Assembly: GCA_963822405.1 (NCBI GenBank)
Contig: CAWGHH010000001.1
Coordinates: forward strand, 293,373-357,372
Source: Candidatus Uhrbacteria bacterium
GTDB taxonomy: Bacteria > Patescibacteriota > Patescibacteriia > UBA9934
Direction: 5' to 3'
Length of the DNA stretch: 64,000 nt
In this document: piece by piece, positions 12,828-29,946 of the stretch
How positions within the stretch are numbered: position 1 is the first letter of the stretch
How the letters are laid out: each line of letters opens with the position of its first letter
Notes under the pieces: model-generated
Seen by the model: the letters and a program-made list of their open reading frames with translations, nothing else
What the model was told of the DNA's origin: nothing
The model's database searches: none
Translations under genes and position numbers: made by a program

Positions 12828-12860
12828 CGACACCCTACTCCCTACACGCTACACCCTATG
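12828..12860. repeat. solo right-end repeat (CGACACCCTACTCCCTACACGCTACACCCTATG) after the pheT stop, ending in the ATG of the next gene
   Basis: Near-identical to 8812-8840 and 38426-38459. A degenerate TAG-containing stretch (GGGTAGTGGTATTATTTAGTAAA) immediately precedes it. Confidence 0.65.
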
Positions 12861-14486: not shown

Positions 14487-15650
14487 TTGCATAAACAAAA
14501 AAATTATATGCCAAAAAACATATTGGGTAATTTGAAGAAACATAAGAGCGGGTATCAATACCTTTCACTTTCGGCATTCCCGCCTGAGTTAAAGGAGGTG
14601 CTTTCTGGTGCATTATTAGAGAAGGCTGATTATGCACAATTTTGCTTGGGCAAGCTTTCCGGTATTACTCACCTTCTTCCGGATGTAGATTTTTTCATTT
14701 CTTCGTATATAACTAAAGACGCTACCTCTTCTTCGCAGATCGAGGGAACAAAAGCCACTATGGCCGACGCCTTTGAATATGCGGCAAATCCCAACGACGA
14801 TAATTCTGATGCCGATGATATTTCGCATTATATTTCCGCACTTCATTACGGTCTTAAGCGACTAGGCGGAGATAATTTCCCCTTCGCTTTGCGTTTTATC
14901 AAGGAGCTTCATAAAGAATTAATGAAGAATGCAAGGTCGACTCATTTTTCCGATCCAGGTGAGTTTCGCACGTCTCAAAACTGGATTGGTGGCACTACTC
15001 CAACCAATGCTAGTTTTGTGCCTCCTGCGCCGGAAGAACTCACTCGACCATTAAAAGATCTTGAGAGCTTCATACACGTCAGACACTTTCATCCGGTACT
15101 TCAAGCCGGCTTGCTTCATGCACAGTTCGAAACCATTCACCCATTTTTGGACGGTAACGGAAGAACGGGCCGGTTATTGATTACATTCTATTTGATTCAG
15201 CAAAGACTTCTTGAGAGACCGGTGCTGTTTTTGTCTTCTTACTTTAAGAAGCATCAGAAGCTCTACTATCAGAGGCTTTCCGGATACCACCATGGTGAAA
15301 TCGGTCCATGGCTTGATTTCTTTCTTGATGGAATTATCGAGACTGCAGAGCAGGCTATTTCGGTATCTATCGCCGTTACTGCCTTGAGAGATAAGGATTT
15401 AAAAACGGTAGCGACTCTCGGAAAATCAGTCTCTGAAGTTTCTTCGAATATTCTTCAGCGCTTATACCAGAATCCGATCGTGTCTACAGCGCTAATAGAA
15501 CAGTGGACCGGTTACACTAGACCAGGTGTTATCAAAATCATTGATAAGTTGATGAAAGTGGGAATTCTAGAACTTTATCGCAAGGGGGAGGGTACGAAAC
15601 CGTCTGTGTATATTCATCGTGAATATGTAAACTTGTTTGCTGAAAAGTAG
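14487..15650 (+). CDS. Fic family protein (AMPylase/phosphocholine-transferase fold) with C-terminal winged-helix domain
   Basis: 387 aa. Fic motif HPFLDGNGRTGRLLITFYL. The start may be the second ATG at 14508 (MPKNILG). Confidence 0.8.
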   Translation: MHKQKNYMPKNILGNLKKHKSGYQYLSLSAFPPELKEVLSGALLEKADYAQFCLGKLSGITHLLPDVDFFISSYITKDATSSSQIEGTKATMADAFEYAANPNDDNSDADDISHYISALHYGLKRLGGDNFPFALRFIKELHKELMKNARSTHFSDPGEFRTSQNWIGGTTPTNASFVPPAPEELTRPLKDLESFIHVRHFHPVLQAGLLHAQFETIHPFLDGNGRTGRLLITFYLIQQRLLERPVLFLSSYFKKHQKLYYQRLSGYHHGEIGPWLDFFLDGIIETAEQAISVSIAVTALRDKDLKTVATLGKSVSEVSSNILQRLYQNPIVSTALIEQWTGYTRPGVIKIIDKLMKVGILELYRKGEGTKPSVYIHREYVNLFAEK

Positions 15651-15710
15651 GAATGTGCAATTAGTGCACATTCTAAGCAAACAATCCGATCTTCCGACCG
15701 GATTTTTGTT

Positions 15711-16244
15711 TTAAGGTGAATTCCGAATTTTCGCCCTAATTTGTTTATGGTTTGGGATTGTTTGTTCAACCAGTTTCCAAAACCTCACCGAGTGATTCAT
15801 CTGCGCCAAATGACACAGTTCATGGACGACAATATAGTCCACTTGTTCCTGTGTCAGATGAACAATCCGATAATTAAAACTCAGCGTTCCCGTACTGGTA
15901 CAACTACCCCAACGAGTTTTCTGATTTCTGATAGATACTTTCTTCCAGGACAACTTATAGAATTTATTGAAATAGTCGAGTCTCGACTCCACAAGTTCAA
16001 GCGCCCTATCTTTTAGCCGACCATAATCAGCCCTCGTCCCGCCACGTAGTAGACTTGGCGGTCGAGCCTTGGCTTTGGCGACGTGTTCAACTATCCACGC
16101 CGACTTCTGTTCGACGAACTGATTGATCATCCATGCTGGCACGCGCTTGTGTGCGGTGACCGTACACGCCCCATCCGCGCCAATGCGAATACGTATCCCA
16201 CGCGAGCGGGGGTGGCGTTTTAGTGCGAACTCGACGGAGGGCAT
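15711..16244 (-). CDS. DUF45/YgjP-like HExxH metal-dependent hydrolase
   Basis: 177 aa. VVHELCHLAQMNHSVRFWKLV matches the DUF45 signature. Divergent from hsdM. Confidence 0.65.
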   Translation of the reverse strand: MPSVEFALKRHPRSRGIRIRIGADGACTVTAHKRVPAWMINQFVEQKSAWIVEHVAKAKARPPSLLRGGTRADYGRLKDRALELVESRLDYFNKFYKLSWKKVSIRNQKTRWGSCTSTGTLSFNYRIVHLTQEQVDYIVVHELCHLAQMNHSVRFWKLVEQTIPNHKQIRAKIRNSP

Positions 16245-16361
16245 AGCGTGGACATGGTATCAGTAAGGCGATTAAAATTGAACCTCGATTTCTTGCGTCA
16301 TATGTGGGAGAATGGCGTACAGTGCGGATATCCATTCGCGTAGCATATAAACAGTCCAGAT

Positions 16362-17921
16362 ATGACCAAAGAACAAGAACGTTCAGAGCTGCACCGTGCC
16401 ATTTGGCAAATTGCTAATGATCTTCGAGGAAGCGTGGATGGGTGGGATTTTAAGCAATATGTGCTTGGAATGCTTTTTTATCGGTTTATCAGCGAGAATT
16501 TAACGAATTACATTAATTCCGAGGAGCGTCGCACGGGAAAGAAGGATTTTGATTACGCCACACTTTCAGATAAGGAGGCTGAATTTGGTCGAGCCGATAC
16601 GGTGCAGGAGAAAGGTTTTTATATTCCGCCGAGGGATCTTTTTGTTAACGTTCGCAGTAAAGCTAGAAATAACCCCAATCTCAACGAATCACTGGTAAAT
16701 GTTTTTCGAGATATTGAGAGTTCCGCTAAGGGATTTGAAAGTGAAGACGATATTAAGGGATTATTTCAGGATCTCGACGTTAACTCAGCCAAGCTTGGTA
16801 ATACTGTAGAACAACGAAATCAAAAGCTTGTAAAGCTTCTTGAGGCTATTGGCGACCTTCGGCTTGGTAACTATTCGGACAATAGTATTGATGCTTTCGG
16901 CGACGCATATGAGTTCCTCATGACCATGTATGCATCGAGTGCAGGAAAGTCCGGGGGAGAGTTCTATACCCCGCAGGAAGTGAGCGAGCTTCTTGCCGAA
17001 ATTACCACTGTCGGCAAAAAAGAAGTAAATAAAGTGTATGACCCAGCGTGCGGATCTGGTTCTTTGCTTTTGAAGTTTGCCAAGGTGCTCGGAAAAGAAA
17101 ATGTTCGACAAGGTTTCTATGGTCAGGAGATTAATCTCACCACCTATAACCTCTGTCGTATCAACATGTTCTTGCACGACATTAACTACAATAATTTTGA
17201 CATTGCTCTTGGCGACACGTTGACCGATCCAAAGCATTGGGACGAAGAACCTTTTGACGCCATTGTTTCTAACCCGCCTTACTCAATTAACTGGGAAGGC
17301 GACGCTAATCCGCTCCTCATTAATGATCCTCGATTTGCGCCCGCCGGTGTACTCGCGCCAAAGAGTAAGGCTGATCTCGCGTTTACCATGCACATGCTTT
17401 CATGGCTTTCTACGAGTGGCACCGCTGCGATTGTTGAGTTCCCTGGTGTTCTCTATCGTGGTGGTGCAGAGCAGAAAATCAGAAAATATCTTGTAGACAA
17501 TAACTACGTTGATGCCGTTATTCAGCTTCCGCCTGATTTGTTCTTTGGTACTACTATTGCTACCTGTATTATCGTAATCAAGAAGAGCAAGAAAGATAAT
17601 AAAGTGCTATTTATTGATGCTTCAGCTGAATTTGCGAGAGGCGGGAACAAAAATAAGCTGTCAGATGTTAATCGAAAGAAAATATTGGACGCTTTCATTT
17701 CTCGTCAGGACGCTGAATATTTCGCAAAACTCGTCGACAACCAGGTAGTAACAGAAAACGATTACAACATCGCCGTATCAAGTTATGTGGTAGCGGAGGA
17801 TACACGGGAGGTCATCGATATCACAGAGCTCAATAAGAAAATTACCGGCATTGTTGCGCGCGAGAATGAGTTGCGCATTGCAATTGACGAGATTGTGGCG
17901 GATATTGAGGGAGTGAAATAG
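16362..17921 (+). CDS. hsdM: type I restriction-modification system DNA methyltransferase subunit
   Basis: 519 aa. N-terminal HsdM_N. Motif I DPACGSGSLL. Motif IV SNPPYS (N6-adenine MTase). Confidence 0.9.
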   Translation: MTKEQERSELHRAIWQIANDLRGSVDGWDFKQYVLGMLFYRFISENLTNYINSEERRTGKKDFDYATLSDKEAEFGRADTVQEKGFYIPPRDLFVNVRSKARNNPNLNESLVNVFRDIESSAKGFESEDDIKGLFQDLDVNSAKLGNTVEQRNQKLVKLLEAIGDLRLGNYSDNSIDAFGDAYEFLMTMYASSAGKSGGEFYTPQEVSELLAEITTVGKKEVNKVYDPACGSGSLLLKFAKVLGKENVRQGFYGQEINLTTYNLCRINMFLHDINYNNFDIALGDTLTDPKHWDEEPFDAIVSNPPYSINWEGDANPLLINDPRFAPAGVLAPKSKADLAFTMHMLSWLSTSGTAAIVEFPGVLYRGGAEQKIRKYLVDNNYVDAVIQLPPDLFFGTTIATCIIVIKKSKKDNKVLFIDASAEFARGGNKNKLSDVNRKKILDAFISRQDAEYFAKLVDNQVVTENDYNIAVSSYVVAEDTREVIDITELNKKITGIVARENELRIAIDEIVADIEGVK

Positions 17922-17924
17922 CCT

Positions 17925-18419
17925 ATGGAAGATCAACCAAACAATGAAATCGTTATCTATACCGGGGACGGCGGTCAACCCGTTATTCAGGTGCGTATTG
18001 TGGGGGAGACAGTCTGGCTAACTCAGGCGCAGCTGGCTGAGCTTTTCGGCACAACCAAGCAGAATATTAGCCTTCACATACAAAATATTTTTGAGGAGGG
18101 CGAGCTGGCTCCCCGAGCAACTGTCAAGGAATACTTGATAGTTCAAACAGAGGGAAATAGAGAGGTTTCCCGCCAAATAGATCATTACAATCTCGACCTC
18201 ATTATATCCGTTGGATATCGAATAAAATCCCAAATTGCGACACATTTTAGACAATGGGCCACGGCGCGGCTTCGGGAATATATTGTCAAAGGATTTACGA
18301 TGGATGACGAGCGTTTGGAAAACACTGGTGGCCAGTTGCGCAGATTCCTATATAAGTATAACTTCGAGCTAATCACCCATTTTTTTCAATGTTTTCCACG
18401 CCTTCTTCGTTGTGGATAA
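17925..18419 (+). CDS. RhuM-family virulence-protein N-terminal fragment (truncated paralog of the 29947-30912 RhuM-Doc protein)
   Basis: 164 aa. DLIISVGYRIKSQIATHFRQWATARLREYIVKGFTMDDERL aligns with AIISVGYRVNSVTATKFRQWATKTLRQHITKGYTINPKVI at 29947+. Lacks the C-terminal half. Confidence 0.5.
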   Translation: MEDQPNNEIVIYTGDGGQPVIQVRIVGETVWLTQAQLAELFGTTKQNISLHIQNIFEEGELAPRATVKEYLIVQTEGNREVSRQIDHYNLDLIISVGYRIKSQIATHFRQWATARLREYIVKGFTMDDERLENTGGQLRRFLYKYNFELITHFFQCFPRLLRCG

Positions 18420-18443
18420 CCTAAGCCGGGTATAATTATAGAT

Positions 18444-19787
18444 ATGGCTCTCGACTGGCAACAGTTTGGATTAAAGAGAAACCCCTTCGATACACTCCCT
18501 TTAGTTGAGGGAGGAGATTTACCTATCGAGAAGGCCTTCGTCGGCAGAATGGATGAAAGAGATATGATTGATTCGTTATTCGAACAGGAAACGCACTTGT
18601 GTCTAATTGTCGCTGGCGAGGTGGGGGTTGGAAAGACTAGCTTGGTGAATTTCCAAAAATTCATTTGGAAATATAATAAATCAAAATTGCTATTCTCTTC
18701 GAGACGCGAAATTGAAGCTAGCAAGTACTTGTTAGATAAGAGAAACTTTTTACTTGAGATCATCGGTTCGGTACTTCGAGAGCTCCAATTGTTAGACCTA
18801 AATCTTTTGAAGGACCCCCTTCTCCAAAAAATAAAAACTGTTGTCGAAGTCAGTCAAAGCATAGCTATTTCTGGGGGCGCAAGCGCATTCGGATTTGGTC
18901 TGGATGCCAGCCACTCAAAAGAATTCACAGCACCTGTGGAACTGACCGTTTCTACACTTGAAGGATATTTACGGGATCTGGTAGGTTTTATAAAAGAGAC
19001 ACGGATAGGTGAATATAAGTATTCTGGACTCATCGTGCACGTTAATAATTTTGATGTTGTACTGAAGTCGGATGAGGGTGGCGTGAGAGAGTTTTTTGAC
19101 GAAATACGAGATATCTTACAGACCCCCGACGTGTTTTTCATATTTATTGGCCCATCAAACTTTTATGAAAAAGTGCTTGTACCTCTGCAGCGTGTGAGAG
19201 GCATTTTTTATCATCTTCCGCTCATAATTAAACCTATGAGCAAAACTGATCTTCGCACAGCGCTTGACGATCGAATGGAATTGCTCAAATCAGAGAACGT
19301 GTCAGTTTATGTAAAACCTTTTGAAGAGAAGCTGGTCTTTGAACTTTATGATTTATACGAGGGCGATGTTCGTTCTATCTTGAACGCACTTGTTTCCATC
19401 CTTCACGAATATAGCGACCGCCTCGCGAAGCCTCTTACAGTTAAGGAAGGCTTGCTGCTTTTGTGCCGTGAATTATGGAGAACGATTGAAAAGAACGCTT
19501 CGCCTACCGATGAACAAAAACAGATTCTACGGTTCATAGCGAATCAAAAAAATCCCGTCTCGAATAAAGAGATCGCTGATGCTCTCGGCAAGCAAGAAAG
19601 CAATATGTCAGCATATTATTTGAAGCCGTTAAAAGACGCCGGAATTATTGAGCTGAAAGAGCAGGTCGGCACTCGCAAGCTCTGGGGAATCTCCCAGCGA
19701 TATAGTATTCTTTCGAGATTTAGTGAGCTGCAGGATGGGGCTGTGACAGATTCGTCGAAGGATGTAGCACAGCTGCGCTTAATATAG
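18444..19787 (+). CDS. ORC/Cdc6-like AAA+ ATPase with C-terminal winged-helix domain
   Basis: 447 aa. FVGRMDERDMI (arch-ATPase FVGRxxE). Walker A AGEVGVGKTSL. Walker B-like LIVHVNNFD. Sensor FIFIGPSNF. C-terminal wHTH (ILRFIANQKNPVSNKEIADALG...). Confidence 0.55.
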   Translation: MALDWQQFGLKRNPFDTLPLVEGGDLPIEKAFVGRMDERDMIDSLFEQETHLCLIVAGEVGVGKTSLVNFQKFIWKYNKSKLLFSSRREIEASKYLLDKRNFLLEIIGSVLRELQLLDLNLLKDPLLQKIKTVVEVSQSIAISGGASAFGFGLDASHSKEFTAPVELTVSTLEGYLRDLVGFIKETRIGEYKYSGLIVHVNNFDVVLKSDEGGVREFFDEIRDILQTPDVFFIFIGPSNFYEKVLVPLQRVRGIFYHLPLIIKPMSKTDLRTALDDRMELLKSENVSVYVKPFEEKLVFELYDLYEGDVRSILNALVSILHEYSDRLAKPLTVKEGLLLLCRELWRTIEKNASPTDEQKQILRFIANQKNPVSNKEIADALGKQESNMSAYYLKPLKDAGIIELKEQVGTRKLWGISQRYSILSRFSELQDGAVTDSSKDVAQLRLI

Positions 19788-19916
19788 AATTTTAATTAAG
19801 ACAGACATTGTGCCTAGCCATCAAAATAGAATCGAAAAATTGATTGTCACCAAATACAATTAACCCCGCGCCACGATTGACGAGACCACGGTGGACATTG
19901 GGATAAACTACATAAT

Positions 19917-20474
19917 ATGTTTGAAAATATTTCGACTTGGTTTGTTGCGTTGCCGATTGGCGCTTGTTTAGGGTGGGTAGCCGATAGATTGCTTGGTCCA
20001 ACTGCGGATGCATTTGGTGCAGGATTACTTAATGTTTTTTCACGATGGTGGAATAAAAAAAGCGAGGCGATTACCGACTATCATAAACTCGAAGACTTGG
20101 TGCGTAAAAATCATATGTCTAATGGACATGGTCGATTCAATGAGCAAAAAACATACATGCACGATCGAGAAATAAATTTAACGTTACTAAAATACGGTTC
20201 ATTTATTCGTCGAGCTATAAAAGAAGCATGGATTGAGAGTGCTACAATAAATAACTATGATGAGAGTGATATATTTTTTGCGGGGATGAATTTGCTTTTC
20301 CCGCAACTTGGCAAGAGTGACATATCAACCATTTATGAAAAGTTTAAGGATAACAACCAGGCATCCTTGCGGTGGTGGCTTGAGCAGATGGAAGAACGAA
20401 AGCCGAAATTTCTGTCACTCGATGTTTTAAAATATTTGCGAACAGAACAAGAGGAACGGAACAAAATAATATGA
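19917..20474 (+). CDS. hypothetical protein with N-terminal TM helix
   Basis: 185 aa. WFVALPIGACLGWVADRLL hydrophobic segment. Very AT-rich. 4-bp overlap with the downstream nuclease gene. Confidence 0.35.
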   Translation: MFENISTWFVALPIGACLGWVADRLLGPTADAFGAGLLNVFSRWWNKKSEAITDYHKLEDLVRKNHMSNGHGRFNEQKTYMHDREINLTLLKYGSFIRRAIKEAWIESATINNYDESDIFFAGMNLLFPQLGKSDISTIYEKFKDNNQASLRWWLEQMEERKPKFLSLDVLKYLRTEQEERNKII

Positions 20475-21532
20475 ATCAAGCAATAACTACAAAATCGATA
20501 GGAAGAGGAATTGCTGAAGTAGGTGCAATTGTTTTGGAGGAAAAACCTTTATCAAAACTTATATTTAAGCCACAAATTCATAATCGTGGAATAAGAGGCT
20601 TTATAATTAGACAAAAAAGAAGTAATAAAAGTGAAGAATGGAAAGATGAACAATCAATAAAACTGAAAGATCTCGCTGATGTTGATGGAGTAAATTTTGA
20701 AATACCAACAGAAGGAATATTGAACTTATTTATTGGAATAAAGAAACTCGCTGTTATTTTAAGAGAAAATGGTGTTGAATACGGAGAAAATCATTATGAA
20801 ATTGTAGATCCTAATTCTGTTATTATAACAGATGAAAATAAAGCTCAGTTTATAAAGAAAATACTTGAAGCGGGATATGAAGAAGAAACTTGGGAAAGCA
20901 TTGTTGAATTAAATCCTGATTTAGCAACAAAACTTTCCTATGCAAGAATTCAAATCGAGAGGAAAAAAGTTTTAGATGAACTTCAAGAAAGATTTAAAAA
21001 TGATTATTCTGAAACAAAAGGAGATGATTCGTGGCAAAATTGGATTTCAAAAAATAATTGGCTTTTTGGTGTGAATTACAGACAACCGATAGAAAAAGCA
21101 AAAATAAATTTATTTGGAATAATGCCAGATTTCTTATATCCGACCATTGATGGTTTTGTTGATGTTTTAGAAATAAAACTTCCTAAAGATGAGGTTTTAA
21201 TGGAAGATGTAGGCCATAAAGGATCATGGAAATGGACACCTGAAACAAATAGTGCAATCGGACAGGTGGTAAATTATTTAACAGAAATTGATAGATTAAG
21301 ATTTGAGAACGAAAATACAATTCGCAACGAAACAACTGATAAAGTTTTGTTTCTAAAACCACGCGCCTTTATTCTTATTGGAAATAGCCAAGAGTGGGAT
21401 GATCAAAAAAAAGAAGCGTTAAGAAAATTAAATTATTATTTACATAATATCGAAGTGCTTACTTATAAAGATTTATTAGATAGAGGAAATCAATTTTTAA
21501 ATAGTCGTAATTTATCCATTAATAAATTATGA
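20471..21532 (+). CDS. PD-(D/E)xK nuclease-fold protein, possibly DUF4263/Shedu(SduA)-like
   Basis: 353 aa. NWLFGVNYRQ...GIMPDFLYPTIDGFVDVLEIKLPKD gives PD...D...E-I-K core motifs. Very AT-rich. 4-bp overlaps with both neighbours (ATGA at both junctions). Confidence 0.45.
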   Translation: MNQAITTKSIGRGIAEVGAIVLEEKPLSKLIFKPQIHNRGIRGFIIRQKRSNKSEEWKDEQSIKLKDLADVDGVNFEIPTEGILNLFIGIKKLAVILRENGVEYGENHYEIVDPNSVIITDENKAQFIKKILEAGYEEETWESIVELNPDLATKLSYARIQIERKKVLDELQERFKNDYSETKGDDSWQNWISKNNWLFGVNYRQPIEKAKINLFGIMPDFLYPTIDGFVDVLEIKLPKDEVLMEDVGHKGSWKWTPETNSAIGQVVNYLTEIDRLRFENENTIRNETTDKVLFLKPRAFILIGNSQEWDDQKKEALRKLNYYLHNIEVLTYKDLLDRGNQFLNSRNLSINKL

Positions 21533-22776
21533 CAAACAATCGATCAAAAATCGAAAAATTAATTTCTGAACTCTGCCCGAACGGGGTGGAGTTTAAGGAG
21601 TTGGGTGAACTTGGTGATTTTTATGGAGGACTTACTGGAAAAAGTAAAGAGGATTTTAGCAATGGCAACGCAAAATTTATCACTTACATGAATATTTTTT
21701 CTAATATTGCCGTTGATACTGATGTAAATATTTTTGTAAAAATGGAGCAGGAGGAAAAGCAAAATAGAATTCAATACGGCGACGTTTTGTTTACAGGTTC
21801 GTCAGAAACACCGGACGAGTGTGGAATGTCCTCTGTTTTAACAAAGAAAATTGATGAGCCGCTGTATCTAAACAGTTTCTGTTTCGGCTTTCGCCCGAAT
21901 GACAAGAATTTGTTGTTGCCCGAGTTTTCTAAATATTTGTTTAGAGATGAACAGATGAGAAAACAGATTGCGAAAACTGCCAGTGGAGTGACGAGATTTA
22001 ATGTCTCAAAAAAGCGTTTTGCAAAAATGACAATCCCTCTCCCACCCCTTGCAATCCAAAAAGAAATCGTCCGTGTGCTAGACTCTTTCACGGAGCTTGA
22101 GGCGGAGCTTGAGGCGGAGCTTGAGGCGGAGCTTGAGGCAAGGAAGAGTCAATATGAACACTATCGTACTGAGCTTTTGACGTTTGGGGTTGGGGTTGAG
22201 CTTAAGGAGCTGGGTGATGTAGCGGGTTATTCCAAGCTTCGAATAGGTGCCACCGAATTAAATTGCGATAATTTTGTAGGTGTAGATAATTTACTTACCA
22301 ACAAACAGGGAAAGACAGTTTCAAGTTATGTACCAACAGCTGGTAAACTGACTCGTTTCGAAACAGGTGACATTCTGCTCGGAAATATTCGTCCATACCT
22401 GAAGAAGATTTGGCTGGCAACGAATGAGGGAGGGGCGAGTGGCGATGTTTTGGTTGTTAGTATCAAGGACGAGAAAAGAAAATACTTGCTATCGGAGTTT
22501 TTGTATTACATGCTTTCTTCGGATAATTTTTTCAATTACGACATGCAGCATGCGAAAGGTGCAAAAATGCCACGTGGAAATAAGGATGCTATTCTACAGT
22601 TTAAAGTCCCAATTCCGTCGATGGCGGAGCAAGAACGTATCGTGTCGATCCTCGACAAATTCGATGCTTTGGTGAACGATATCTCTGTTGGTCTGCCGGC
22701 GGAGATTAGGGCCAGAAGACAGCAGTATGAGTATTATCGGAATAAGCTATTGAGCTTTAGGGAGAAAACTAAATAG
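21529..22776 (+). CDS. hsdS: type I restriction-modification system specificity subunit (two TRDs)
   Basis: 415 aa. Central conserved LPPLAIQKEIVRVLDSFTELEA...RKSQYEHYRTELL and C-terminal IPSMAEQERIVSILDKFDALVNDISVGLPAEIRARRQQYEYYRNKLLSF, the standard HsdS coiled-coil conserved regions. Confidence 0.85.
   Translation: MTNNRSKIEKLISELCPNGVEFKELGELGDFYGGLTGKSKEDFSNGNAKFITYMNIFSNIAVDTDVNIFVKMEQEEKQNRIQYGDVLFTGSSETPDECGMSSVLTKKIDEPLYLNSFCFGFRPNDKNLLLPEFSKYLFRDEQMRKQIAKTASGVTRFNVSKKRFAKMTIPLPPLAIQKEIVRVLDSFTELEAELEAELEAELEARKSQYEHYRTELLTFGVGVELKELGDVAGYSKLRIGATELNCDNFVGVDNLLTNKQGKTVSSYVPTAGKLTRFETGDILLGNIRPYLKKIWLATNEGGASGDVLVVSIKDEKRKYLLSEFLYYMLSSDNFFNYDMQHAKGAKMPRGNKDAILQFKVPIPSMAEQERIVSILDKFDALVNDISVGLPAEIRARRQQYEYYRNKLLSFREKTK
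22093..22140. repeat. perfect 12-bp tandem repeat x4 (GAGCTTGAGGCG; last copy ends GCA) in the central spacer of hsdS, encoding (ELEA)4
   Basis: Read directly: gagcttgaggcg gagcttgaggcg gagcttgaggcg gagcttgaggca. Confidence 0.85.
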
Positions 22777-22845
22777 AATACCCATAGGACGTATTTTGAC
22801 CGAAACACGTTCTACGGGGTACGAAAGAAAGCTTAGATAGCAATT

Positions 22846-25800
22846 ATGAAAATGAAAAAATATAACCTTGTCGCTGAGGGCGCGCAGAGTACTGTTGTTT
22901 CGGAATATACGCCGGATAATAAGAGGGCTTCGCATTACCAGAGTGAGGCGGAGCTTGAGCGGGCGTTTGTGAAGCAGCTTGAGGGGCAGGCGTATGAATA
23001 TGTCACCATTACTTCGGAGGAGGATCTCGTTATTAATTTGAGAAAACAGCTCGAGAAGCTAAATGATTTTTCGTTTACAGATGCGGAGTGGGATAGATTT
23101 TTTAAGAACGAGATTGCCAATCCCAATCAGAGTATCGAGGAGAAAACGAAGACCATTCAGGAGGATCATGTGAAGATACTTACACGTGATGACGGAGCGG
23201 TGAAGAATATTTATCTTCTGAAGAAAGATAACATTCACAACAATTCACTCCAGGTCATCAATCAATACGCTACTGACGAGGGGCAGCGAAGTAATCGGTA
23301 TGATGTAACGGTCTTGGTGAACGGGCTACCGATGGTGCATATTGAGCTGAAGCGTCGTGGAGTGGCCATTCAGGAGGCGTTCAATCAGATTAATCGGTAT
23401 CACCGTGAAAGTTTTTGGGCCGCAGCTGGACTTTTTGAATATGTGCAGCTGTTTGTTATTTCTAACGGTACGCACACAAAGTATTACAGTAACACTACTC
23501 GCGCTCAGCATGTAAAAGATAGTGTCGGGGGTGCGGCAAAGAAAGGAAAAAGGACAAGTAATAGTTTTGAATTTACCAGCTGGTGGGCAGACGCCACTAA
23601 TCGTCCCATCACCGATTTAATGGACTTCGCCAAAACCTTTTTTGCAAAGCACGCGTTGCTGAATATCTTGACTCGATATTGTGTCTTCACGAGTGACCAC
23701 TTGTTGCTAGTAATGCGTCCATACCAAATTGTCGCGACCGAACGCATTCTTAGCCGCATTGAAATCAGCACGAATTATAGGAAGCTGGGAACCGTTGAGG
23801 CTGGTGGCTATGTTTGGCACACCACCGGATCAGGAAAGACTTTAACAAGCTTTAAGACGGCTCAGTTGGCAAGCAAACTGCCTCATGTAGACAAAGTGCT
23901 TTTCGTGGTAGACCGCAAAGATTTGGATTACCAAACCATGCAGGAGTATGACAAGTTTGAGAAGGGGGCGGCGAATAGCAACGCGAGCACCGCGATTCTT
24001 AAGCGTCAGATGGAAGATGCGAATTCGCGCATCATCGTGACCACTATTCAGAAGCTTGATCGCTTCATCGGCCGAAATTCTAAACACGAAATCTTTGATG
24101 GCCACGTCGTGATTATTTTTGACGAATGTCACCGTTCACAGTTTGGTGATATGCATACCGCAATCACGAAGGCATTTAAGAATTACCATCTCTTCGGTTT
24201 TACTGGCACGCCAATCTTTGCGGCCAACGCTTCTGCCGGTGGTCATCCTGATTTGAGGACAACAGAACAGGCCTTTGGCGAGAAACTTCATACCTACACC
24301 ATCGTCGATGCTATTGCGGATAAAAATGTTTTGCCATTTAAGGTTGATTACGTTTCTACGGTTCGTGAAGCTGAGAACATTGAGGATAAAGCAGTGAACG
24401 ATATTGACCGTGAGGCCGTTTTGTCCGCACCGGAACGATTATCGAATATTGTCGAGTATATTCGGGAACATTTCGACCAGAAAACAAAGCGAAACAGCTT
24501 CTATCAGTTGAAAGACAGGCGATTGGCTGGGTTTAATTCGATCTTTGCTGTTTCTTCTATTGAAATGGCCAAGAGATACTACGCTGAGTTCAAGAAGCAA
24601 CTCGCTGGTGTCCCAGGTGACAAGCAATTAAAAATCGCAACTATCTTTAGTTTTGGAGTGAATGATGAAGATGCTGATGGGATGATCGATGAAAATTCGG
24701 AAGACACGAGCGGTCTAGATGTGAGCTCACGTGATTTCTTGGAGAATGCGATCAAAGATTACAATGTCATGTTCGGAGCCTCGTACGACACCTCTTCTGA
24801 TAAATTTCAGAACTACTATAAGGACGTGAGTCAACGCGTGAAAAATCGAGAGATAGATGTACTCATCGTGGTGAACATGTTCTTGACCGGTTTTGATGCG
24901 ACAACGTTGAACACTTTGTGGGTTGATAAGAATCTTCGATTGCATGGATTGGTTCAGGCGTTTTCGCGCACGAACCGCATTCTTAATAGCGTTAAGACGT
25001 TCGGAAACATCGTTTGTTTCCGTAACCTAGAGAAGGCGACGAATGAGGCGATTGCGTTATTTGGTGACAAAGAAGCTAGCGGTATCGTTCTTCTTAAGGC
25101 GTACGCTGATTATTACAATGGCTATAAGAATGACGGCACAGAGGTGCGCGGTTACGAAAGTCTGGTAAAGGAATTGCAGGAAAAGTTCCCCGTTGGCGAG
25201 AGAATTCTTGGTGAACAGGATCGGAAGGACTTTATTAGGTTATATGGTGCGATTTTGCGTGTTCGGAATATCCTCACCACATTCGATGAATTTGTGGGTA
25301 ATGAGATTCTGACCGAGCGCGACGTGCAGGACTATCACAGTGCATATATTGATCTATACAATGAATTCCGCAAGCAAGTGGAGGGGGAGAAGGAGAACGT
25401 GAATGATGATGTAGTTTTTGAAATGGAGTTGATTAAACAAATCGAGATCAATATTGATTATGTGATCGGACTCATTAAAAAGTATCACGAAGGTCACACG
25501 AAGGATCGAGAGCTACTCGTTGATATTAACAAGGCGATTGATTCTAGTGTTGAATTACGTAATAAAAAAGATCTTATCAATCAATTCATCACCAGACTTG
25601 ATGTTCATTCTGTCGTTGAAGATGACTGGCAGAAGTTTGTGGATGAGAAGAAAGTTGAGGAGCTGGATCAGATTATCTCCAATGAAGGGCTCGACCACGA
25701 CGCAACGTATAAATTTGTGCAAAATGCGTTCCGTAACGGGGATATCGTCGGTACCGGAACCGCAATCGCCAAAATAATACCGCCGGTAACACGTTTTTCT

Positions 25801-25902
25801 CCGGGCGGTGAACGTACAAAGAAGCGCGAGAGCGTATTGGGGAAATTAACACATTTCTTTGAGCGATTCTTTGATATTTCGGGTGGTAAGTTTTCAGATT
25901 GA
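22846..25902 (+). CDS. hsdR: type I restriction enzyme R subunit (helicase/endonuclease)
   Basis: 1018 aa. N-terminal PD-(D/E)xK region (VLVNGLPMVHIELK). Walker A HTTGSGKTLTS. DEAH-like VIIFDECHRSQ. Helicase C domain. Confidence 0.9.
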   Translation: MKMKKYNLVAEGAQSTVVSEYTPDNKRASHYQSEAELERAFVKQLEGQAYEYVTITSEEDLVINLRKQLEKLNDFSFTDAEWDRFFKNEIANPNQSIEEKTKTIQEDHVKILTRDDGAVKNIYLLKKDNIHNNSLQVINQYATDEGQRSNRYDVTVLVNGLPMVHIELKRRGVAIQEAFNQINRYHRESFWAAAGLFEYVQLFVISNGTHTKYYSNTTRAQHVKDSVGGAAKKGKRTSNSFEFTSWWADATNRPITDLMDFAKTFFAKHALLNILTRYCVFTSDHLLLVMRPYQIVATERILSRIEISTNYRKLGTVEAGGYVWHTTGSGKTLTSFKTAQLASKLPHVDKVLFVVDRKDLDYQTMQEYDKFEKGAANSNASTAILKRQMEDANSRIIVTTIQKLDRFIGRNSKHEIFDGHVVIIFDECHRSQFGDMHTAITKAFKNYHLFGFTGTPIFAANASAGGHPDLRTTEQAFGEKLHTYTIVDAIADKNVLPFKVDYVSTVREAENIEDKAVNDIDREAVLSAPERLSNIVEYIREHFDQKTKRNSFYQLKDRRLAGFNSIFAVSSIEMAKRYYAEFKKQLAGVPGDKQLKIATIFSFGVNDEDADGMIDENSEDTSGLDVSSRDFLENAIKDYNVMFGASYDTSSDKFQNYYKDVSQRVKNREIDVLIVVNMFLTGFDATTLNTLWVDKNLRLHGLVQAFSRTNRILNSVKTFGNIVCFRNLEKATNEAIALFGDKEASGIVLLKAYADYYNGYKNDGTEVRGYESLVKELQEKFPVGERILGEQDRKDFIRLYGAILRVRNILTTFDEFVGNEILTERDVQDYHSAYIDLYNEFRKQVEGEKENVNDDVVFEMELIKQIEINIDYVIGLIKKYHEGHTKDRELLVDINKAIDSSVELRNKKDLINQFITRLDVHSVVEDDWQKFVDEKKVEELDQIISNEGLDHDATYKFVQNAFRNGDIVGTGTAIAKIIPPVTRFSPGGERTKKRESVLGKLTHFFERFFDISGGKFSD

Positions 25903-25995
25903 TCGCGGGATAGATTAGTATCGGCTTCACAGTCTAGTTAGCAGTCATTAGTGATGAGTGCTAGTATGAATATGTAATTCAATAATTATGTATTT

Positions 25996-26532
25996 ATGAC
26001 AAATTACGAACCAATCACAATTATTATATATTTATGTCAGGTTGTATTAGGATTGATTACAATTTTGTTGATGCTATATGGTTTGCGCAAGATTCAAAAG
26101 GTTTTTCCGATGATTGAAACTGTATATACGGCAAAAACACGATCTAATGGTCAGAATGGTCCGATTGTTTCTGATGCCCTTGGAAGTATTATGGTTACAT
26201 TGGCTACTCAAATTGCCGGTGAAGATTTGAATAATGGAGTAATGAGAATAATGACAAAGGGAACGTACTCGCCTCCTATCGTTTCCAGTGGCCTGGTGAA
26301 AAGTGGTCCCGGTTATCTCTTAGGTTTTGTGATAAACTCAGTAATCTCAGGCGCTACATTGAGAATCCTGGATGGTGCCGATAATTCCGGTGCAGCTATT
26401 TTTGATACGATGACTTTTACAGCAATGTTTAATGGGCCCAAAGTAATTTCGTTGCCTGCGGCGGTAGAATTTAATAATGGATGTTATTTTTGTGTCGATG
26501 GTACAATTTCAATTACTCCAATATTGAGTTAG
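25996..26532 (+). CDS. hypothetical membrane-anchored protein (island cargo)
   Basis: 178 aa. N-terminal TM (IIIYLCQVVLGLITILLMLYGL). AT-rich. No recognisable motif. Confidence 0.3.
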   Translation: MTNYEPITIIIYLCQVVLGLITILLMLYGLRKIQKVFPMIETVYTAKTRSNGQNGPIVSDALGSIMVTLATQIAGEDLNNGVMRIMTKGTYSPPIVSSGLVKSGPGYLLGFVINSVISGATLRILDGADNSGAAIFDTMTFTAMFNGPKVISLPAAVEFNNGCYFCVDGTISITPILS

Positions 26533-26634
26533 TCTAAAATTTATTTTGTAAGAGTTGTATAACCCAAAAAACAAAACTCCTTTTATATTAAAATCAATAA
26601 AGTGAAAAGAGAGGAAATGGTTGCTACATAACAT

Positions 26635-27228
26635 ATGCCCGAAATAATCTACATCCTCATCAATGAAGCCATGCCTGGTTATGTGAAGATAGGCATGACA
26701 ACTAATCTAGAACAGCGAATTCGTTCGCTTGATACAACTGGTGTTCCGTTGCCGTTTGAATGTTTTTACGCGTGTACGGTGAAGGATTGTACGTTTGTTG
26801 AGCGTCAGTTGCATGATGCATTTTTGGATCATCGAGTGCGCTCTAGCAGAGAATTCTTTGAGATATCACCCGAACGTGCCGTCGCAGCCCTGAAGCTTGC
26901 CGAAATAGAGAACATTACGCCAAAGAAGGACTTTGTGGAGACGCAGGAGGATCAGCAGGCGCTTAACGAAGCTAGAACAAGACGAGCGGTGTTTAATTTT
27001 GGCTTGGTAAATATTCCGGTTGGCGCAGAGCTAACGTTTAGTCGGGATGATAATCAGAAAGTAACCGTTATAGACAATAGGTCAGTCATGTTTAACGGAG
27101 AAATCACTAGTTTGTCAGCTTCGGCGCAAGAGTTACTTGGGTACCCGTACCAAGTACAGGGAACGGTTTATTGGTTGTATGAAGGGGAAACACTCGATGA
27201 AAGAAGGAAAAGATTTGAAAGCGGGTAG
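26635..27228 (+). CDS. T5orf172 (GIY-YIG-like) domain protein
   Basis: 197 aa. IYILINEAMPGYVKIGMTTNLEQRIRSL...ERQLHDAF...REFFEIS matches the T5orf172 pattern. Confidence 0.6.
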   Translation: MPEIIYILINEAMPGYVKIGMTTNLEQRIRSLDTTGVPLPFECFYACTVKDCTFVERQLHDAFLDHRVRSSREFFEISPERAVAALKLAEIENITPKKDFVETQEDQQALNEARTRRAVFNFGLVNIPVGAELTFSRDDNQKVTVIDNRSVMFNGEITSLSASAQELLGYPYQVQGTVYWLYEGETLDERRKRFESG

Positions 27229-27492
27229 ATGATCGCTAAACTTATTGAGGCTCGAGATGAAGATGCTTGGCGGATTAAGCTTGCTGATCTCACGGATAAC
27301 TTGAGGCAGTGTCACGGCCTATCGCTCGATAACCGACGATTCATGATTGAAGTGAAAGCCACGCTGATGCTTCGCCTAGCTAAGACTATGCCATTTAGTC
27401 GAATGATCACGGAGGAACCGCCATTTGTTCAGCCGAGCATCCTTGCTCTCCAGACAGAGATGGAAAAACAACGGGCGGGGTTGGGTCAATAA
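27229..27492 (+). CDS. small hypothetical protein
   Basis: 87-aa ORF overlapping the upstream stop codon (ATGA). No motif. Confidence 0.25.
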   Translation: MIAKLIEARDEDAWRIKLADLTDNLRQCHGLSLDNRRFMIEVKATLMLRLAKTMPFSRMITEEPPFVQPSILALQTEMEKQRAGLGQ

Positions 27493-27514
27493 ATTGATTT
27501 TATTCACGCTTATA

Positions 27515-27650
27515 GCCCCAAAACCGTGAAAAAGTAGTAAAAAATGGCATTCTGTCACGGTTATGGCTCGTAAATCGTGACAAAAGTGCATTTTATTGCA
27601 TTCTGTCACGGTTATGTTGCCAAAACCGTGACAGTAGTGTATAATGCTGA
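27515..27650 (+). promoter_or_regulatory. promoter (TTGCCA-N17-TATAAT) with multiple CGTGACA-core operator-like repeats upstream of the second Fic gene
   Basis: 19-mer GCATTCTGTCACGGTTATG occurs exactly twice (27547-27565 and 27599-27617). Inverted partner AAAACCGTGACAG (27622-27634) sits in the spacer. A further half-site AAATCGTGACAAAAG lies at 27573-27587. TATAAT at 27640-27645. Confidence 0.45.
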
Positions 27651-27653
27651 TAT

Positions 27654-28538
27654 ATGGCAAAAACGTTGGGTTCTTATAAAAAGATCAGTATATTGCGCGA
27701 ACGGTACTATCAGGTAGCAACGGGTAAAGATGCACTTTTGAAGCTTATTGCTGAGGTGGAAGTGGCGGAGCAGGTTTATAACTCAAATGCTATTGAGAAT
27801 AGCACTCTTAGTCTTGAAGAGACGGAAAAGATTCTTTTGCAAATTGATCTGGATCGGTACGTGGAAGGACGGGAGATTTTTGAGGCTAAGAACTTGGCGC
27901 GTGTTGTGGGCTATATTGATCACAAGGCGAAAGAGCAGGAATTGACGCTTGATGTCATGTTGTCACTTCATCAGATGCTGATCTTGAATATTCAAGATGA
28001 TATTGCTGGTAGATTCAGGAACGAAAAAGAATTTGTTCGCGTGGGCAGCTATATCGCGCCTAACCCGAAAGAAGTGGTTGGGCTTCTTGAAAAGATGCTC
28101 GCCGAATACAATGCTTCAAGTCACGAGAATATTATTAAGCGTATCGCTCGCCTACATTTAACATTTGAGCATATCCATCCATTTGTTGACGGGAATGGTC
28201 GCATCGGTCGAGTAATCAGTAATTATCTTCTTCTCCGAGAAGGCTTCGTGCCGATCAATATTAAGTTTATCGATCGGGACATGTACTATGAAGCATTTAA
28301 GGAATTCGATACTAAAGGAGAGACTAGGGTGATGGAGGAAATTGTTGGAAAGGCGTTGACTAATAGTTATCACAAACGACTTGCGTATCTAGAGGGGGCG
28401 GAAATAATGACACTAACTGAATACGGAAAAAAGAATAAGATTTCACGGACGAATTTAGTGAATAAAGCTAGCCGTCAAACAATCGAGGCGTTTTTGGAAA
28501 AAGGTATTTGGAAAATCGGAGTCAAACATGGCGTATAG
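27654..28538 (+). CDS. Fic family protein
   Basis: 294 aa. Fic motif HPFVDGNGRIGRVISNYLL. Confidence 0.8.
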   Translation: MAKTLGSYKKISILRERYYQVATGKDALLKLIAEVEVAEQVYNSNAIENSTLSLEETEKILLQIDLDRYVEGREIFEAKNLARVVGYIDHKAKEQELTLDVMLSLHQMLILNIQDDIAGRFRNEKEFVRVGSYIAPNPKEVVGLLEKMLAEYNASSHENIIKRIARLHLTFEHIHPFVDGNGRIGRVISNYLLLREGFVPINIKFIDRDMYYEAFKEFDTKGETRVMEEIVGKALTNSYHKRLAYLEGAEIMTLTEYGKKNKISRTNLVNKASRQTIEAFLEKGIWKIGVKHGV

Positions 28539-28551
28539 TGTTGGTTAGCCT

Positions 28552-29916
28552 ATGCTCTCCAAATCCTCTTTCATGCAGTTTCTCCGGTGTAGTTGCGAGC
28601 TGTGGCTGTATAAGCAACGGCCGGATTTGGCGCCGGAGTTTGATGAGGCGACCTTGAGAGTTTTTGCGACGGGTAATGAGGTAGACAGCTGGGCGCAGAA
28701 GCTGTACCCCAAGGCGGTGAATGTGATGGGGTTTGGGAAGAGGGGAGCGGAGGATATGAAGAAGGCGATTGCTCTTGGCGCAAAGGCGTTATTACAGCCG
28801 ACTTTTATTGTGAATGCGTTTGGGGGAGAGATTACCTGTAGAGCTGACATCATGAAGAAAAATAGTGACGATTCTTGGGATCTTCTAGAGGTAAAAAGCA
28901 CCACGGAGGTGAAGAAAGAGCACATCATGGATATGGCGTTTCAACGTATAGTCCTTGAGGAAGCCGGATTGAAGATTCGAAAGACTCTTCACGTCCACAT
29001 CGACAATCAATATGTTCGAGCGGGAGAAATTGAGCCAGAGAAGTTGTTCGCGCGTACAGATGTAACTCATGAGGTTGAGGAGCTATTGCCATTGTGTCGA
29101 AAAGAAATTCCGCGTGCGCTCTCTGTGCTCGATTGGGGGAAGGAACCGAACCTCGACATCATCAATAACTGTACTGACCCGGAGAAATGCGAATTCCGAG
29201 CATGTATTTTACAGGCGATGGGGGAGGAGGACGAGACGTACAGGATTAGTCCTGCCAACCCAAATTTGAAGATTGATAAGACGGCCATTAAAGAAGAGCT
29301 CGACAGCCTAACTTATCCTCTCTACTTTTTAGATTACGAAACATGGAATCCTGCTATTCCGGCTTTTGATGGCTACAAGCCGTATCAGCAGTGCGTGTTT
29401 CAATATTCAATCCATATTTTGAAATCACCAAAGGCCAAGCTAGAACACGTTGAGGTTTTGGTTGACGAGTTAGTTGATCCGGCGCCGATTATTGCAAAAG
29501 CGCTGGCCGAGCATATCGGTCCGACGGGCAGTGTCATTTCTTGGAACATGATTTTCGAGGCTTCTCGAAATGAAGAACTCGGCGACCTCGTTCCTGAATA
29601 TGCTGATCAACTACGAAGCATTAACGAACGGATGTTCGACCTCATGATGATCGTGAAAAAGGGTTACTACAAAGACGCACGCTTTGGGGGCAGTGCATCC
29701 TTGAAAAAAGTTCTCCCAGTTCTGTGTCCCGAACTTTCTTACGACTCTCTGGCTATCCATGAAGGTGGCACCGCCTCCGCCAGCTGGCCTGTCCTCACGA
29801 ACCCGTCGACCACGCCTGCCGACAAAGCTCAACTCCGCAAAGACATGCTCGCTTATTGCGAACTAGATACATTGGCGATGGTGGAAATTTATAAGAAGTT
29901 TTTAACGATTGTGTAA
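28552..29916 (+). CDS. DUF2779-like protein: N-terminal Cas4/RecB-type PD-(D/E)xK nuclease fused to C-terminal DEDDy-type 3'-5' exonuclease-like domain
   Basis: 454 aa. Cys-rich N-terminus. RADIMKKNSDDSWDLLEVKST (D...E-V-K). C-terminal LYFLDYETWNP (Exo I-like D-x-E) and YCELDTLAMVEIY (Y-x3-D). Confidence 0.45.
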   Translation: MLSKSSFMQFLRCSCELWLYKQRPDLAPEFDEATLRVFATGNEVDSWAQKLYPKAVNVMGFGKRGAEDMKKAIALGAKALLQPTFIVNAFGGEITCRADIMKKNSDDSWDLLEVKSTTEVKKEHIMDMAFQRIVLEEAGLKIRKTLHVHIDNQYVRAGEIEPEKLFARTDVTHEVEELLPLCRKEIPRALSVLDWGKEPNLDIINNCTDPEKCEFRACILQAMGEEDETYRISPANPNLKIDKTAIKEELDSLTYPLYFLDYETWNPAIPAFDGYKPYQQCVFQYSIHILKSPKAKLEHVEVLVDELVDPAPIIAKALAEHIGPTGSVISWNMIFEASRNEELGDLVPEYADQLRSINERMFDLMMIVKKGYYKDARFGGSASLKKVLPVLCPELSYDSLAIHEGGTASASWPVLTNPSTTPADKAQLRKDMLAYCELDTLAMVEIYKKFLTIV

Positions 29917-29946
29917 GTTTTGAGTTTTGGTATATTGATCCTTGAT

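What the first reader, a model, noticed from the sequence alone, without database searches (positions are those of the whole stretch)
22093..22140. 12-bp x4 perfect tandem repeat in the hsdS central coiled-coil spacer, a potential specificity-switching site
GAGCTTGAGGCG is repeated four times in frame, giving (ELEA)4 between the two target-recognition domains. In the EcoR124I/EcoR124II pair, changing a 12-bp TAEL repeat from 2 to 3 copies lengthens the non-specific spacer of the bipartite recognition sequence by 1 bp. A perfect 4-copy array is prone to slipped-strand or unequal-crossover copy-number change, so this system may vary its recognition-sequence spacing in the population.
Basis: partly seen in the sequence, partly recalled or inferred. 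Interest (0 to 1): 0.6.

Follow-up and report, generated by a model that had tools for sequence, protein, structure and literature searches.

The report
Spacer-length repeat in a restriction specificity gene
The 12-base repeat is real and is the well-known "ruler" of type IC restriction enzymes, which sets the gap in the DNA site the enzyme recognises; it is an ordinary new example in an uncultured bacterium, and whether it varies within this population could not be tested.

Summary
A perfect period-12 tract lies at 22091-22139. It is in frame in a 415-aa HsdS (21529-22776) and encodes T(ELEA)4 inside a predicted 44-residue central helix.

The operon is type IC: its HsdR carries the EcoR124_C domain. 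It sits in a defence island of a Patescibacteria (CPR) genome.

One correction matters. Between the conserved anchors LDxF and RKxQYxxYR the linker is 17 aa. That is 4 aa more than the EcoR124 HsdS in the PDB (13 aa, two TAEL). So "4 copies" equals the three-TAEL class of EcoR124II, EcoDXXI and EcoPrrI (N7 spacer). It is not a new, longer state.

The array is a family feature:
- Linkers in about 170 homologues are strictly quantised: 5, 9, 13 or 17 aa.
- Metagenomes hold arrays of 5-10 units.
- Units are homogenised within genes (76% identical DNA) but not between genes (8%).
- Near-identical genes differ only in unit number (P0084/P0094; L096/L099).

Heterogeneity at this locus is untested: only one sample holds it, and no close relative was found. 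This is a new member of a known kind, of low interest.

The parts
22091..22139 (+). Perfect period-12 tract (49 nt, 4.1 copies).
   Evidence: TRF 100% matches, score 98; sequence read.
22093..22140 (+). Four codon-register units: GAGCTTGAGGCG x3 then GAGCTTGAGGCA, encoding (ELEA)4, residues 189-204.
   Evidence: The last unit differs at its final base, as edge units do in many relatives.
21529..22776 (+). hsdS (415 aa), the specificity subunit.
   Evidence: Pfam Methylase_S x2, E 1.9e-36. Best solved relative is the EcoR124 HsdS 7bst_A, E 7.7e-31. AF2 pLDDT 93 and HsdS fold matches.
21529..22047 (+). TRD1 (N-terminal target-recognition domain, residues 1-173).
   Evidence: AF2 secondary structure. 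About 96% DNA identity to the TRD1 of another system (L120) up to 22071, after which identity collapses.
22048..22179 (+). Central conserved helix (D1/CR1, residues 174-217, 44 aa), which holds the repeat.
   Evidence: AF2 helix H174-217. Aligns to EcoR124 HsdS residues 151-199.
22180..22620 (+). TRD2 (C-terminal target-recognition domain, residues 218-364).
   Evidence: At most 68% identity to any TRD2 among the 120 homologues.
22621..22749 (+). Distal conserved helix (D2/CR2, residues 365-407, 43 aa), inferred to be the antiparallel partner of the central helix.
   Evidence: AF2 helix H365-407. 64.7-bit match to the EcoR124 HsdS C-terminus. Its LDKF-to-RRQQY linker is a constant 17 aa in the family.
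16362..17921 (+). hsdM (519 aa).
   Evidence: Pfam N6_Mtase E 4e-114 and HsdM_N.
22846..25902 (+). hsdR (1018 aa), type IC.
   Evidence: Pfam HSDR_N, SWI2_SNF2, T1R_D3-like and EcoR124_C, E 5.3e-67.
17925..21532 (+). Four genes inserted between hsdM and hsdS: a RhuM-like gene (17925-18419), an AAA ATPase with a winged helix (18444-19787), an unknown gene (19917-20474) and Shedu SduA (20471-21532, whose end overlaps the hsdS start).
   Evidence: Pfam and PADLOC: SduA E 1.7e-95, PDC-S05 E 5e-59.

Best explanation
The tract is the length-setting repeat, or "molecular ruler", of the central dimerisation helix of a type IC HsdS. The helix (residues 174-217) pairs antiparallel with the C-terminal helix (365-407) and fixes the distance and twist between the two target-recognition domains. 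That in turn fixes the gap of the bipartite methylation and restriction site.

Four 12-nt units give a 17-aa linker, the same length as in EcoR124II, EcoDXXI and EcoPrrI. The predicted target therefore has adenines 8 nt apart, which is an N7 gap for 3 + 4 bp half-sites.

The array arose by recent duplication of a 12-nt unit. Like its relatives, it can gain or lose whole units, always in frame, by slipped-strand mispairing or unequal crossing-over. Each step should change the gap by 1 bp. I expect this to act mainly between strains, as rare events, rather than as fast phase variation.

Shown here: the tract, its reading frame, its position in the helix, the type IC context, the length class, and unit-number change in relatives. 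Inferred: the N7 prediction and any switching at this locus.
For: Tract and frame.

Type IC context: HsdR carries EcoR124_C and HsdS is closest to EcoR124 HsdS.

Helix: AF2 at pLDDT 93 gives H174-217 and H365-407; fold matches include 1yf2, 5ybb_D (TM 0.73) and 7bst_A.

Length class: the query has FT-ELEAELEAELEAELEA-RK (17 aa) against FT-ALTAELTAELNM-RK (13 aa) in 7bst_A.

Quantised linkers: 9, 13 or 17 aa in 110 protein homologues (5, 91 and 14, query included) and 5, 9, 13 or 17 aa in 63 genomic loci (3, 1, 31 and 28). Arrays of 5-10 units occur in hsdS genes of metagenomes.

Turnover: unit pairs coding the same amino acids are identical in DNA in 76% of within-gene comparisons and 8% of between-gene comparisons. 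There are 30 different ELEA-coding units in 63 genes, and this window's unit is unique to it.

Same-gene pairs that differ in unit number: P0084/P0094, TRDs 100% identical, 17 vs 13 aa; L096/L099, 600/600 nt identical on both flanks, 6 vs 5 units; L083/L106, 10 vs 5 units.

Literature: two TAEL give N6 and three give N7, and the change occurs by unequal crossing-over (PMC3874165). In NgoAV, one LEAT gives GACN6TGC and two give GACN7TGC by SMRT sequencing (PMC6789123). The 12-bp hsdS repeats of M. pneumoniae vary among strains and passages (PMC4537597).
Against: There is no direct evidence at this locus. The gene was found in one sample only (ERR12037365). The closest HsdS among 5.8 billion proteins is 76% identical. 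No exact DNA match exists in metagenome contigs. The short-read k=31 assembly cannot resolve the copy number.

A 12-nt unit in four copies is a far weaker slippage substrate than the 1-5-nt repeats of classical contingency loci.

The N7 prediction assumes that the TRD geometry matches that of the E. coli enzymes.

Copy numbers taken from short-read metagenome assemblies of relatives (L083-L119) could include assembly errors.
Confidence: 0.85

Rival explanations
1. The array is an active contingency locus. Within the living population it switches often among 3, 4 and 5 units, giving mixed methylomes and restriction specificities.
For: The 49-nt tract is perfect, and DNA-level homogenisation implies recent unit gain. 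Relatives show strain-level differences. M. pneumoniae hsdS repeats change between laboratory passages (PMC4537597).
Against: No reads were available. There is one sample only. The assembly that gave the window reports a single allele. Other 17-aa-class genes carry the same four perfect units in distant phyla, which shows that four units can be a stable state. The window lacks the poly-G or (GA)n tracts that accompany fast switching in some relatives.
Confidence: 0.2
2. The array is a fixed structural sequence. The repeat is simply how this coiled-coil helix is encoded, the copy number is frozen in this lineage, and the repeat has no switching role.
For: 17 aa makes the central helix (44 aa) match the distal helix (43 aa). 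The review calls three TAEL the apparent optimum (PMC3874165). 13 and 17 aa dominate the family.
Against: Synonymous sites are identical among units within genes but differ between genes (76% vs 8%). That pattern needs continuing duplication and loss, not ancient frozen units. Near-identical genes differ by whole units.
Confidence: 0.3
3. The conserved central region serves mainly as a homologous-recombination junction for swapping whole TRDs between hsdS alleles. The repeat is then a by-product.
For: TRD1 DNA is about 96% identical to L120 from 21529 to 22071. Identity collapses from 22072, which is 20 nt before the tract, and TRD2 is unrelated. L087 and L118 share the upstream flank and the array but diverge 32 nt after it.
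Against: The breakpoint seen here lies upstream of the tract, not in it. TRD swapping does not explain the quantised lengths or within-array homogenisation. The two processes are not mutually exclusive.
Confidence: 0.25
4. The copy number in the window is an assembly artefact.
For: A k=31 assembly cannot traverse the tract.
Against: 48 nt is well within a single read length. The de Bruijn break itself requires a perfect periodic tract of at least 43 nt, that is four or more units. Four perfect units are common in relatives.
Confidence: 0.05

Closest known systems
EcoR124I / EcoR124II (type IC) HsdS TAEL repeat
   Same: The position is the same: the first dimerisation helix, between LDxF and RKxQYxxYR. 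Both have a 12-nt, 4-aa unit with Leu every fourth residue, an HsdR with the EcoR124_C domain, and a conserved distal helix. Linker length equals the EcoR124II class (17 aa).
   Different: The unit is ELEA, not TAEL. Four perfect DNA units fill the whole linker, whereas EcoR124II has three perfect units plus degenerate edges. The TRDs are unrelated in specificity. The host is a CPR bacterium, and four defence genes are inserted between hsdM and hsdS.
NgoAV (Neisseria gonorrhoeae, type IC) LEAT repeats
   Same: The central repeat of four amino acids is Glu/Leu/Ala-rich. Among strains, the number of units correlates with an N6 or N7 motif by SMRT sequencing (PMC6789123).
   Different: NgoAV also has a poly-G tract that truncates HsdS. 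The window has no such tract, although some metagenomic relatives do (L083/L106, L104/L107).
Mycoplasma pneumoniae hsdS 12-bp AELS/TELS repeats
   Same: A 12-bp in-frame tandem repeat in the first dimerisation helix. Copy number varies among strains and passages (PMC4537597).
   Different: Arrays there reach 33 copies, in orphan hsdS genes. The family and the unit sequence are different.
EcoDXXI and EcoPrrI (type IC, three TAEL, N7)
   Same: They belong to the same length class that is predicted for this protein (PMC3874165).
   Different: Their sequences were not compared directly here. The specificity of the window's TRDs is unknown.

Membership tests
Type IC restriction-modification system (EcoR124 family) | HsdR with the family-specific C-terminal domain (Pfam EcoR124_C) | tested here: met
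   PF12008 E 5.3e-67, residues 748-1008.
Type IC restriction-modification system (EcoR124 family) | HsdS with two TRDs and with central and C-terminal conserved regions similar to EcoR124 HsdS | tested here: met
   phmmer against the PDB gives 7bst_A at E 7.7e-31, matching residues 170-222 and 319-411. Methylase_S x2. AF2 model plus Foldseek matches.
Type IC restriction-modification system (EcoR124 family) | A tandem tetra-amino-acid repeat in the central conserved region | tested here: met
   (ELEA)4, residues 189-204.
Type IC restriction-modification system (EcoR124 family) | Gene order hsdM, hsdS, hsdR | tested here: met
   The order is kept: 16362-17921, 21529-22776, 22846-25902. Four extra genes lie between hsdM and hsdS.
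Type IC restriction-modification system (EcoR124 family) | Subunit complementation or antibody cross-reaction with EcoR124, the original definition of the family | not testable with these tools
   Needs genetics or biochemistry.
Spacer-length switch by repeat-number change (EcoR124I/II type) | Unit number changes between otherwise identical genes | tested here: inconclusive
   Met in relatives: P0084/P0094, L096/L099 and L083/L106. No variant of this gene exists in the collections searched.
Spacer-length switch by repeat-number change (EcoR124I/II type) | The recognition gap changes by 1 bp per unit | not testable with these tools
   Needs a methylome or restriction assays. Known for EcoR124I/II and NgoAV from the literature.
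Phase-variable (contingency) locus | Length heterogeneity of the repeat within one clonal population | not testable with these tools
   No read data. The Logan k=31 contigs break in the tract and cannot count units.
Phase-variable hsdS by invertible or shuffling extra hsdS copies | Additional partial hsdS copies or inverted repeats near the locus | tested here: not met
   tblastn of HsdS against the window finds only the gene itself.

The most novel reading that the evidence does not exclude
In this CPR (Patescibacteria) bacterium the ELEA array is a working contingency switch. Cells in the population carry 3, 4 or 5 units and hence N6, N7 or N8 methylomes and restriction barriers. This would diversify defence in an organism with a tiny genome, from within an operon that also carries Shedu and other defence genes. 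More broadly, the within-gene homogenisation seen across phyla would mean that the type IC ruler turns over continuously everywhere, including arrays of 5-10 units whose target geometry is unknown.
Probability: 0.15. Interest if true: 0.4.

Novelty: new member of a known kind. Interest (0 to 1): 0.2.

Why it matters
It matters little as a discovery, because the mechanism has been known since EcoR124I/II (1987-1989) and has been seen again in Neisseria and Mycoplasma.

It is still useful in three ways:
- It lets the recognition-site gap of an uncultured CPR bacterium's type I system be predicted as the N7 class.
- It shows that counting DNA copies alone misleads. The length class must be measured between conserved anchors.
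- The family survey made here gives a clean comparative signature of ongoing unit gain and loss that could be used to flag such rulers automatically. The signature consists of quantised linkers of 5 to 41 aa, within-gene homogenisation of synonymous sites, and identical genes that differ only by units.

Tried and rejected
1. Strain-level variants of this gene. The protein search found nothing closer than 76% identity. The scan of one genome per species found no same-species locus. An exact-DNA scan of metagenome contigs with the left flank plus one unit gave 0 hits. The exact HsdS protein is not in the 15-billion-protein collection, although HsdM and HsdR of the same contig are. This route was a dead end.

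2. Independent assembly. The Logan contigs of ERR12037365 carry the flanks but break inside the tract. A k=31 graph makes 3, 4 and 5 units indistinguishable, so I reject this as evidence either for or against heterogeneity.

3. Shufflon or inversion-type hsdS switching. There is no second hsdS fragment in the window. Rejected.

4. A poly-G or (GA)n frameshift switch after the central region, as in relatives L083/L106 and L104/L107. The window has only two G4 runs at 22184-22198. Rejected.

5. The 16-nt identity between the repeat and hsdR 22944-22959. It is explained by the same EAELE peptide motif and is probably coincidence.

6. Primary papers on engineered repeat numbers (Gubler and Bickle 1991, PMC452739; Youell and Firman 2008, PMC2415743). 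They are not held in the library, so I make no claim about what four or more TAEL units do.

7. Measuring TRD displacement from the AF2 model. Coordinates are not returned, so only secondary structure was used.

Full report
**1. Observation.**
The sequence at 22060-22150 reads ...GACTCTTTCACG GAGCTTGAGGCG GAGCTTGAGGCG GAGCTTGAGGCG GAGCTTGAGGCA AGGAAG.... Tandem Repeats Finder reports 22091-22139, period 12, 4.1 copies, 100% matches and score 98. This is the strongest perfect repeat in the window. The perfect periodicity begins two bases earlier, in the Thr codon.

The tract is in frame in ORF 21529-22776 (415 aa). It encodes ...LDSF-T-ELEA-ELEA-ELEA-ELEA-RKSQYEHYR.... Given that peptide and the codon usage of 19 long ORFs of the window, the chance that the units share the same codons is about 1e-5. 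The DNA identity therefore reflects recent duplication and is not only protein-level periodicity.

**2. What the gene is.**
The ORF has two Pfam Methylase_S stretches (E 1.9e-36). Upstream lies hsdM (16362-17921; N6_Mtase E 4e-114). Downstream lies hsdR (22846-25902), which carries HSDR_N, SWI2_SNF2, T1R_D3-like and the family-specific EcoR124_C domain (E 5.3e-67). The best solved relative of the S subunit is the EcoR124 HsdS (7bst_A, E 7.7e-31). The matches fall on the central and C-terminal conserved regions.

An AlphaFold2 model built on 62 sequences has mean pLDDT 93.1. It shows one continuous helix at residues 174-217 (44 aa), which contains the repeat at residues 189-204. A second helix lies at residues 365-407 (43 aa). 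Foldseek finds the HsdS structures 1yf2_A, 5ybb_D (TM 0.73) and 7bst_A.

The host is chromosomal DNA (PheT, DnaE, ThrRS and GatB in the window) of a Patescibacteria/CPR bacterium near Uhrbacteria (named GatB relatives).

**3. Length class, the main correction.**
I measured the linker between the invariant anchors LDxF and R-K-x-Q-Y-x-x-Y-R. Here it is TELEAELEAELEAELEA, 17 aa. The EcoR124 HsdS in the PDB has TALTAELTAELNM, 13 aa, which is the two-TAEL form. The window protein is therefore one unit longer than EcoR124I (GAA N6 RTCG). It has the same length as the three-TAEL enzymes EcoR124II, EcoDXXI and EcoPrrI, which are all N7 with methylated adenines 8 nt apart (review PMC3874165).

With 17 aa, the central helix (44 aa) and the distal helix (43 aa) are nearly equal. 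This fits the review's remark that three repeats look optimal. The predicted target, by inference, is a bipartite m6A site of the N7 class.

**4. The array is a family feature and it turns over.**
- **Linker classes in proteins.** Among the 120 best protein homologues plus the query, the central linker could be located in 110, query included. It was 9 aa in 5, 13 aa in 91 and 17 aa in 14, and never any other length. The distal linker is a constant 17 aa.
- **Linker classes in genomes.** Among 63 hsdS loci recovered from one genome per species, the classes were 5, 9, 13 and 17 aa (3, 1, 31 and 28 loci). Nine genes, in phyla as distant as Doudnabacteria, Vampirovibrionales, Rhodobacteraceae and Bacilli, carry four identical 12-nt units.
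- **Homogenisation.** Different genes use different synonymous versions of the unit, with 30 distinct ELEA-coding 12-mers. The window's GAGCTTGAGGCG is seen nowhere else. Within a gene the units are nearly always identical. Unit pairs coding the same amino acids are identical in DNA in 76% of within-gene comparisons (mean 0.25 differences) and in 8% of between-gene comparisons (mean 2.1 differences). Deviating units are typically at the array edge, as in the window. This is the signature of continuing gain and loss of units (concerted evolution).
- **Longer arrays.** A metagenome scan for five or more ELEA-coding units found 37 loci. About 27 of them are in clear hsdS context, with 5, 6, 7, 8 and 10 units.
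- **Identical genes with different unit numbers.** P0084 and P0094 (the latter named as E. coli) have both TRDs 100% identical but linkers of 17 and 13 aa. P0040 and P0043, and P0026 against P0039 and P0045, are further pairs. L096 and L099 are identical over 600 of 600 nt on each flank but have 6 and 5 units. L083 and L106 are identical for more than 1.4 kb upstream but have 10 and 5 units. One caveat applies: copy numbers in short-read metagenome assemblies can be wrong.

**5. Literature.**
- The mechanism was established for EcoR124I/II as unequal crossing-over at a 12-bp repeat. [quoted passage not shown]
- In N. gonorrhoeae NgoAV, strains carry 0-3 LEAT units. SMRT sequencing shows GACN6TGC with one unit and GACN7TGC with two (PMC6789123).
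- In M. pneumoniae, 12-bp AELS/TELS repeats in the first dimerisation helix of seven hsdS genes vary among strains and between passages of one strain (PMC4537597. See also PMC8836594).
- Atack et al. discuss the TAEL coiled coil in their survey of phase-variable type I systems (PMC7383803).

**6. What could not be shown.**
No variant of this particular gene is available.
- The closest HsdS in 5.8 billion proteins is 76% identical (P0001, 13-aa class).
- The exact protein is not in the collection, although HsdM and HsdR of the same contig are.
- An exact-DNA scan of metagenome contigs gave nothing.
- The only other assembly, the Logan contigs of run ERR12037365, carries identical flanks but stops 28 nt into the tract and restarts 31 nt before its end. 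That is expected when a perfect period-12 tract of 43 nt or more closes a cycle in a k=31 graph. It confirms at least four units in the reads but says nothing about heterogeneity.
- The window has no second hsdS fragment for inversion-type switching.
- It also lacks the poly-G or (GA)n tracts that sit just after the central region in some relatives. L083 and L106 differ G7 against G6. L104 and L107 differ (GA)7 against (GA)6, which toggles a truncated against a full-length HsdS.

**7. Module exchange.**
TRD1 of the window (21529-22071) is about 96% identical in DNA to the TRD1 of a different type IC operon (L120, encoding P0036). That operon has other inserted genes and an unrelated TRD2. Identity collapses at 22072, which is 20 nt before the tract. 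So the start of the central conserved region has also served as a recombination junction for TRD reassortment. This is a second known route to new specificities, and it does not compete with the ruler function.

**8. Verdict.**
Four units is the common EcoR124II-equivalent length. Population-level switching is unproven.
- Best explanation (confidence 0.85): this is a type IC ruler repeat of the 17-aa (N7) class, recently homogenised and able to change by whole units on an evolutionary time scale.
- Active switching within the population has a probability of about 0.15-0.2.
- Novelty: a new member of a known kind.
- Interest: 0.2.

Noticed in passing
window 14487-30912: The type IC system sits in a dense defence island. 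SoFic lies upstream (14487-15650). A RhuM-like gene, an AAA ATPase with a winged helix, an unknown gene and Shedu SduA are inserted between hsdM and hsdS, and the SduA stop overlaps the hsdS start at 21529-21532. Downstream lie T5orf172/PDC-S57 (26635-27228), Fic/PDC-S04 (27654-28538), a DUF2779/Cas4-like gene (28552-29916) and RhuM-Fic/PDC-S23 (29920-30912). The relative L120 carries different inserts (SMC_N/AAA_15 and Fic) at the same operon positions.
   Followed up: partly
window 21529-22071 versus L120 5198-5740: TRD1 of hsdS is about 96% identical in DNA to the TRD1 of another type IC system. Identity collapses at 22072, just before the repeat, and TRD2 is unrelated. This indicates recent TRD module exchange, with the junction at the start of the central conserved region.
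   Followed up: yes
L083/L106, L104/L107, L096/L099 (metagenome relatives): Otherwise identical hsdS genes differ in the number of ELEA units (10 vs 5; 6 vs 5). Some also differ in a poly-G (G7/G6) or (GA)7/(GA)6 tract just after the central region, which toggles a full-length against a truncated HsdS. Arrays of up to 10 units exist, and their recognition geometry is unknown.
   Followed up: partly
L081 end and L082 start (Logan contigs of ERR12037365): An independent k=31 assembly of the source run breaks exactly inside the 12-bp array. This may be why the HsdS protein is missing from the Logan part of the protein collection, although it does not explain its absence from the NCBI/ENA record that supplies HsdM and HsdR. 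Perfect coding repeats of 43 nt or more will be lost systematically from such assemblies.
   Followed up: yes
window 8402-8426, 8810-8838, 12151-12182, 12830-12858: Arrays of 7-mers (TAGGGTG on one side, ACACCCT on the other) lie at these four positions. The first two flank a small ORF at about 8438-8790, which I judged by eye to resemble the four-helix 23S-rRNA-IVS protein family; no family search was run on it. A called gene with a 23S_rRNA_IVP hit also occurs in relative L120. This may be a small mobile or repeat-flanked cassette.
   Followed up: no
window 27504-27633: A 51-bp tandem repeat (2.5 copies, 75% matches). Each unit contains the palindrome CACGGTTAT...AACCGTGAC. It lies directly upstream of the Fic gene that starts at 27654 and looks like a set of operator sites.
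   Followed up: no
window 33273-33348 (- strand): ARAGORN calls a tRNA of undetermined identity with an abnormal 2-base anticodon call (gt).
   Followed up: no
window 22944-22959: A 16-nt exact match to the repeat (TGAGGCGGAGCTTGAG) lies in the 5' end of hsdR and encodes the same EAELE motif. It is probably coincidental, but it is a possible substrate for an 850-bp deletion.
   Followed up: partly
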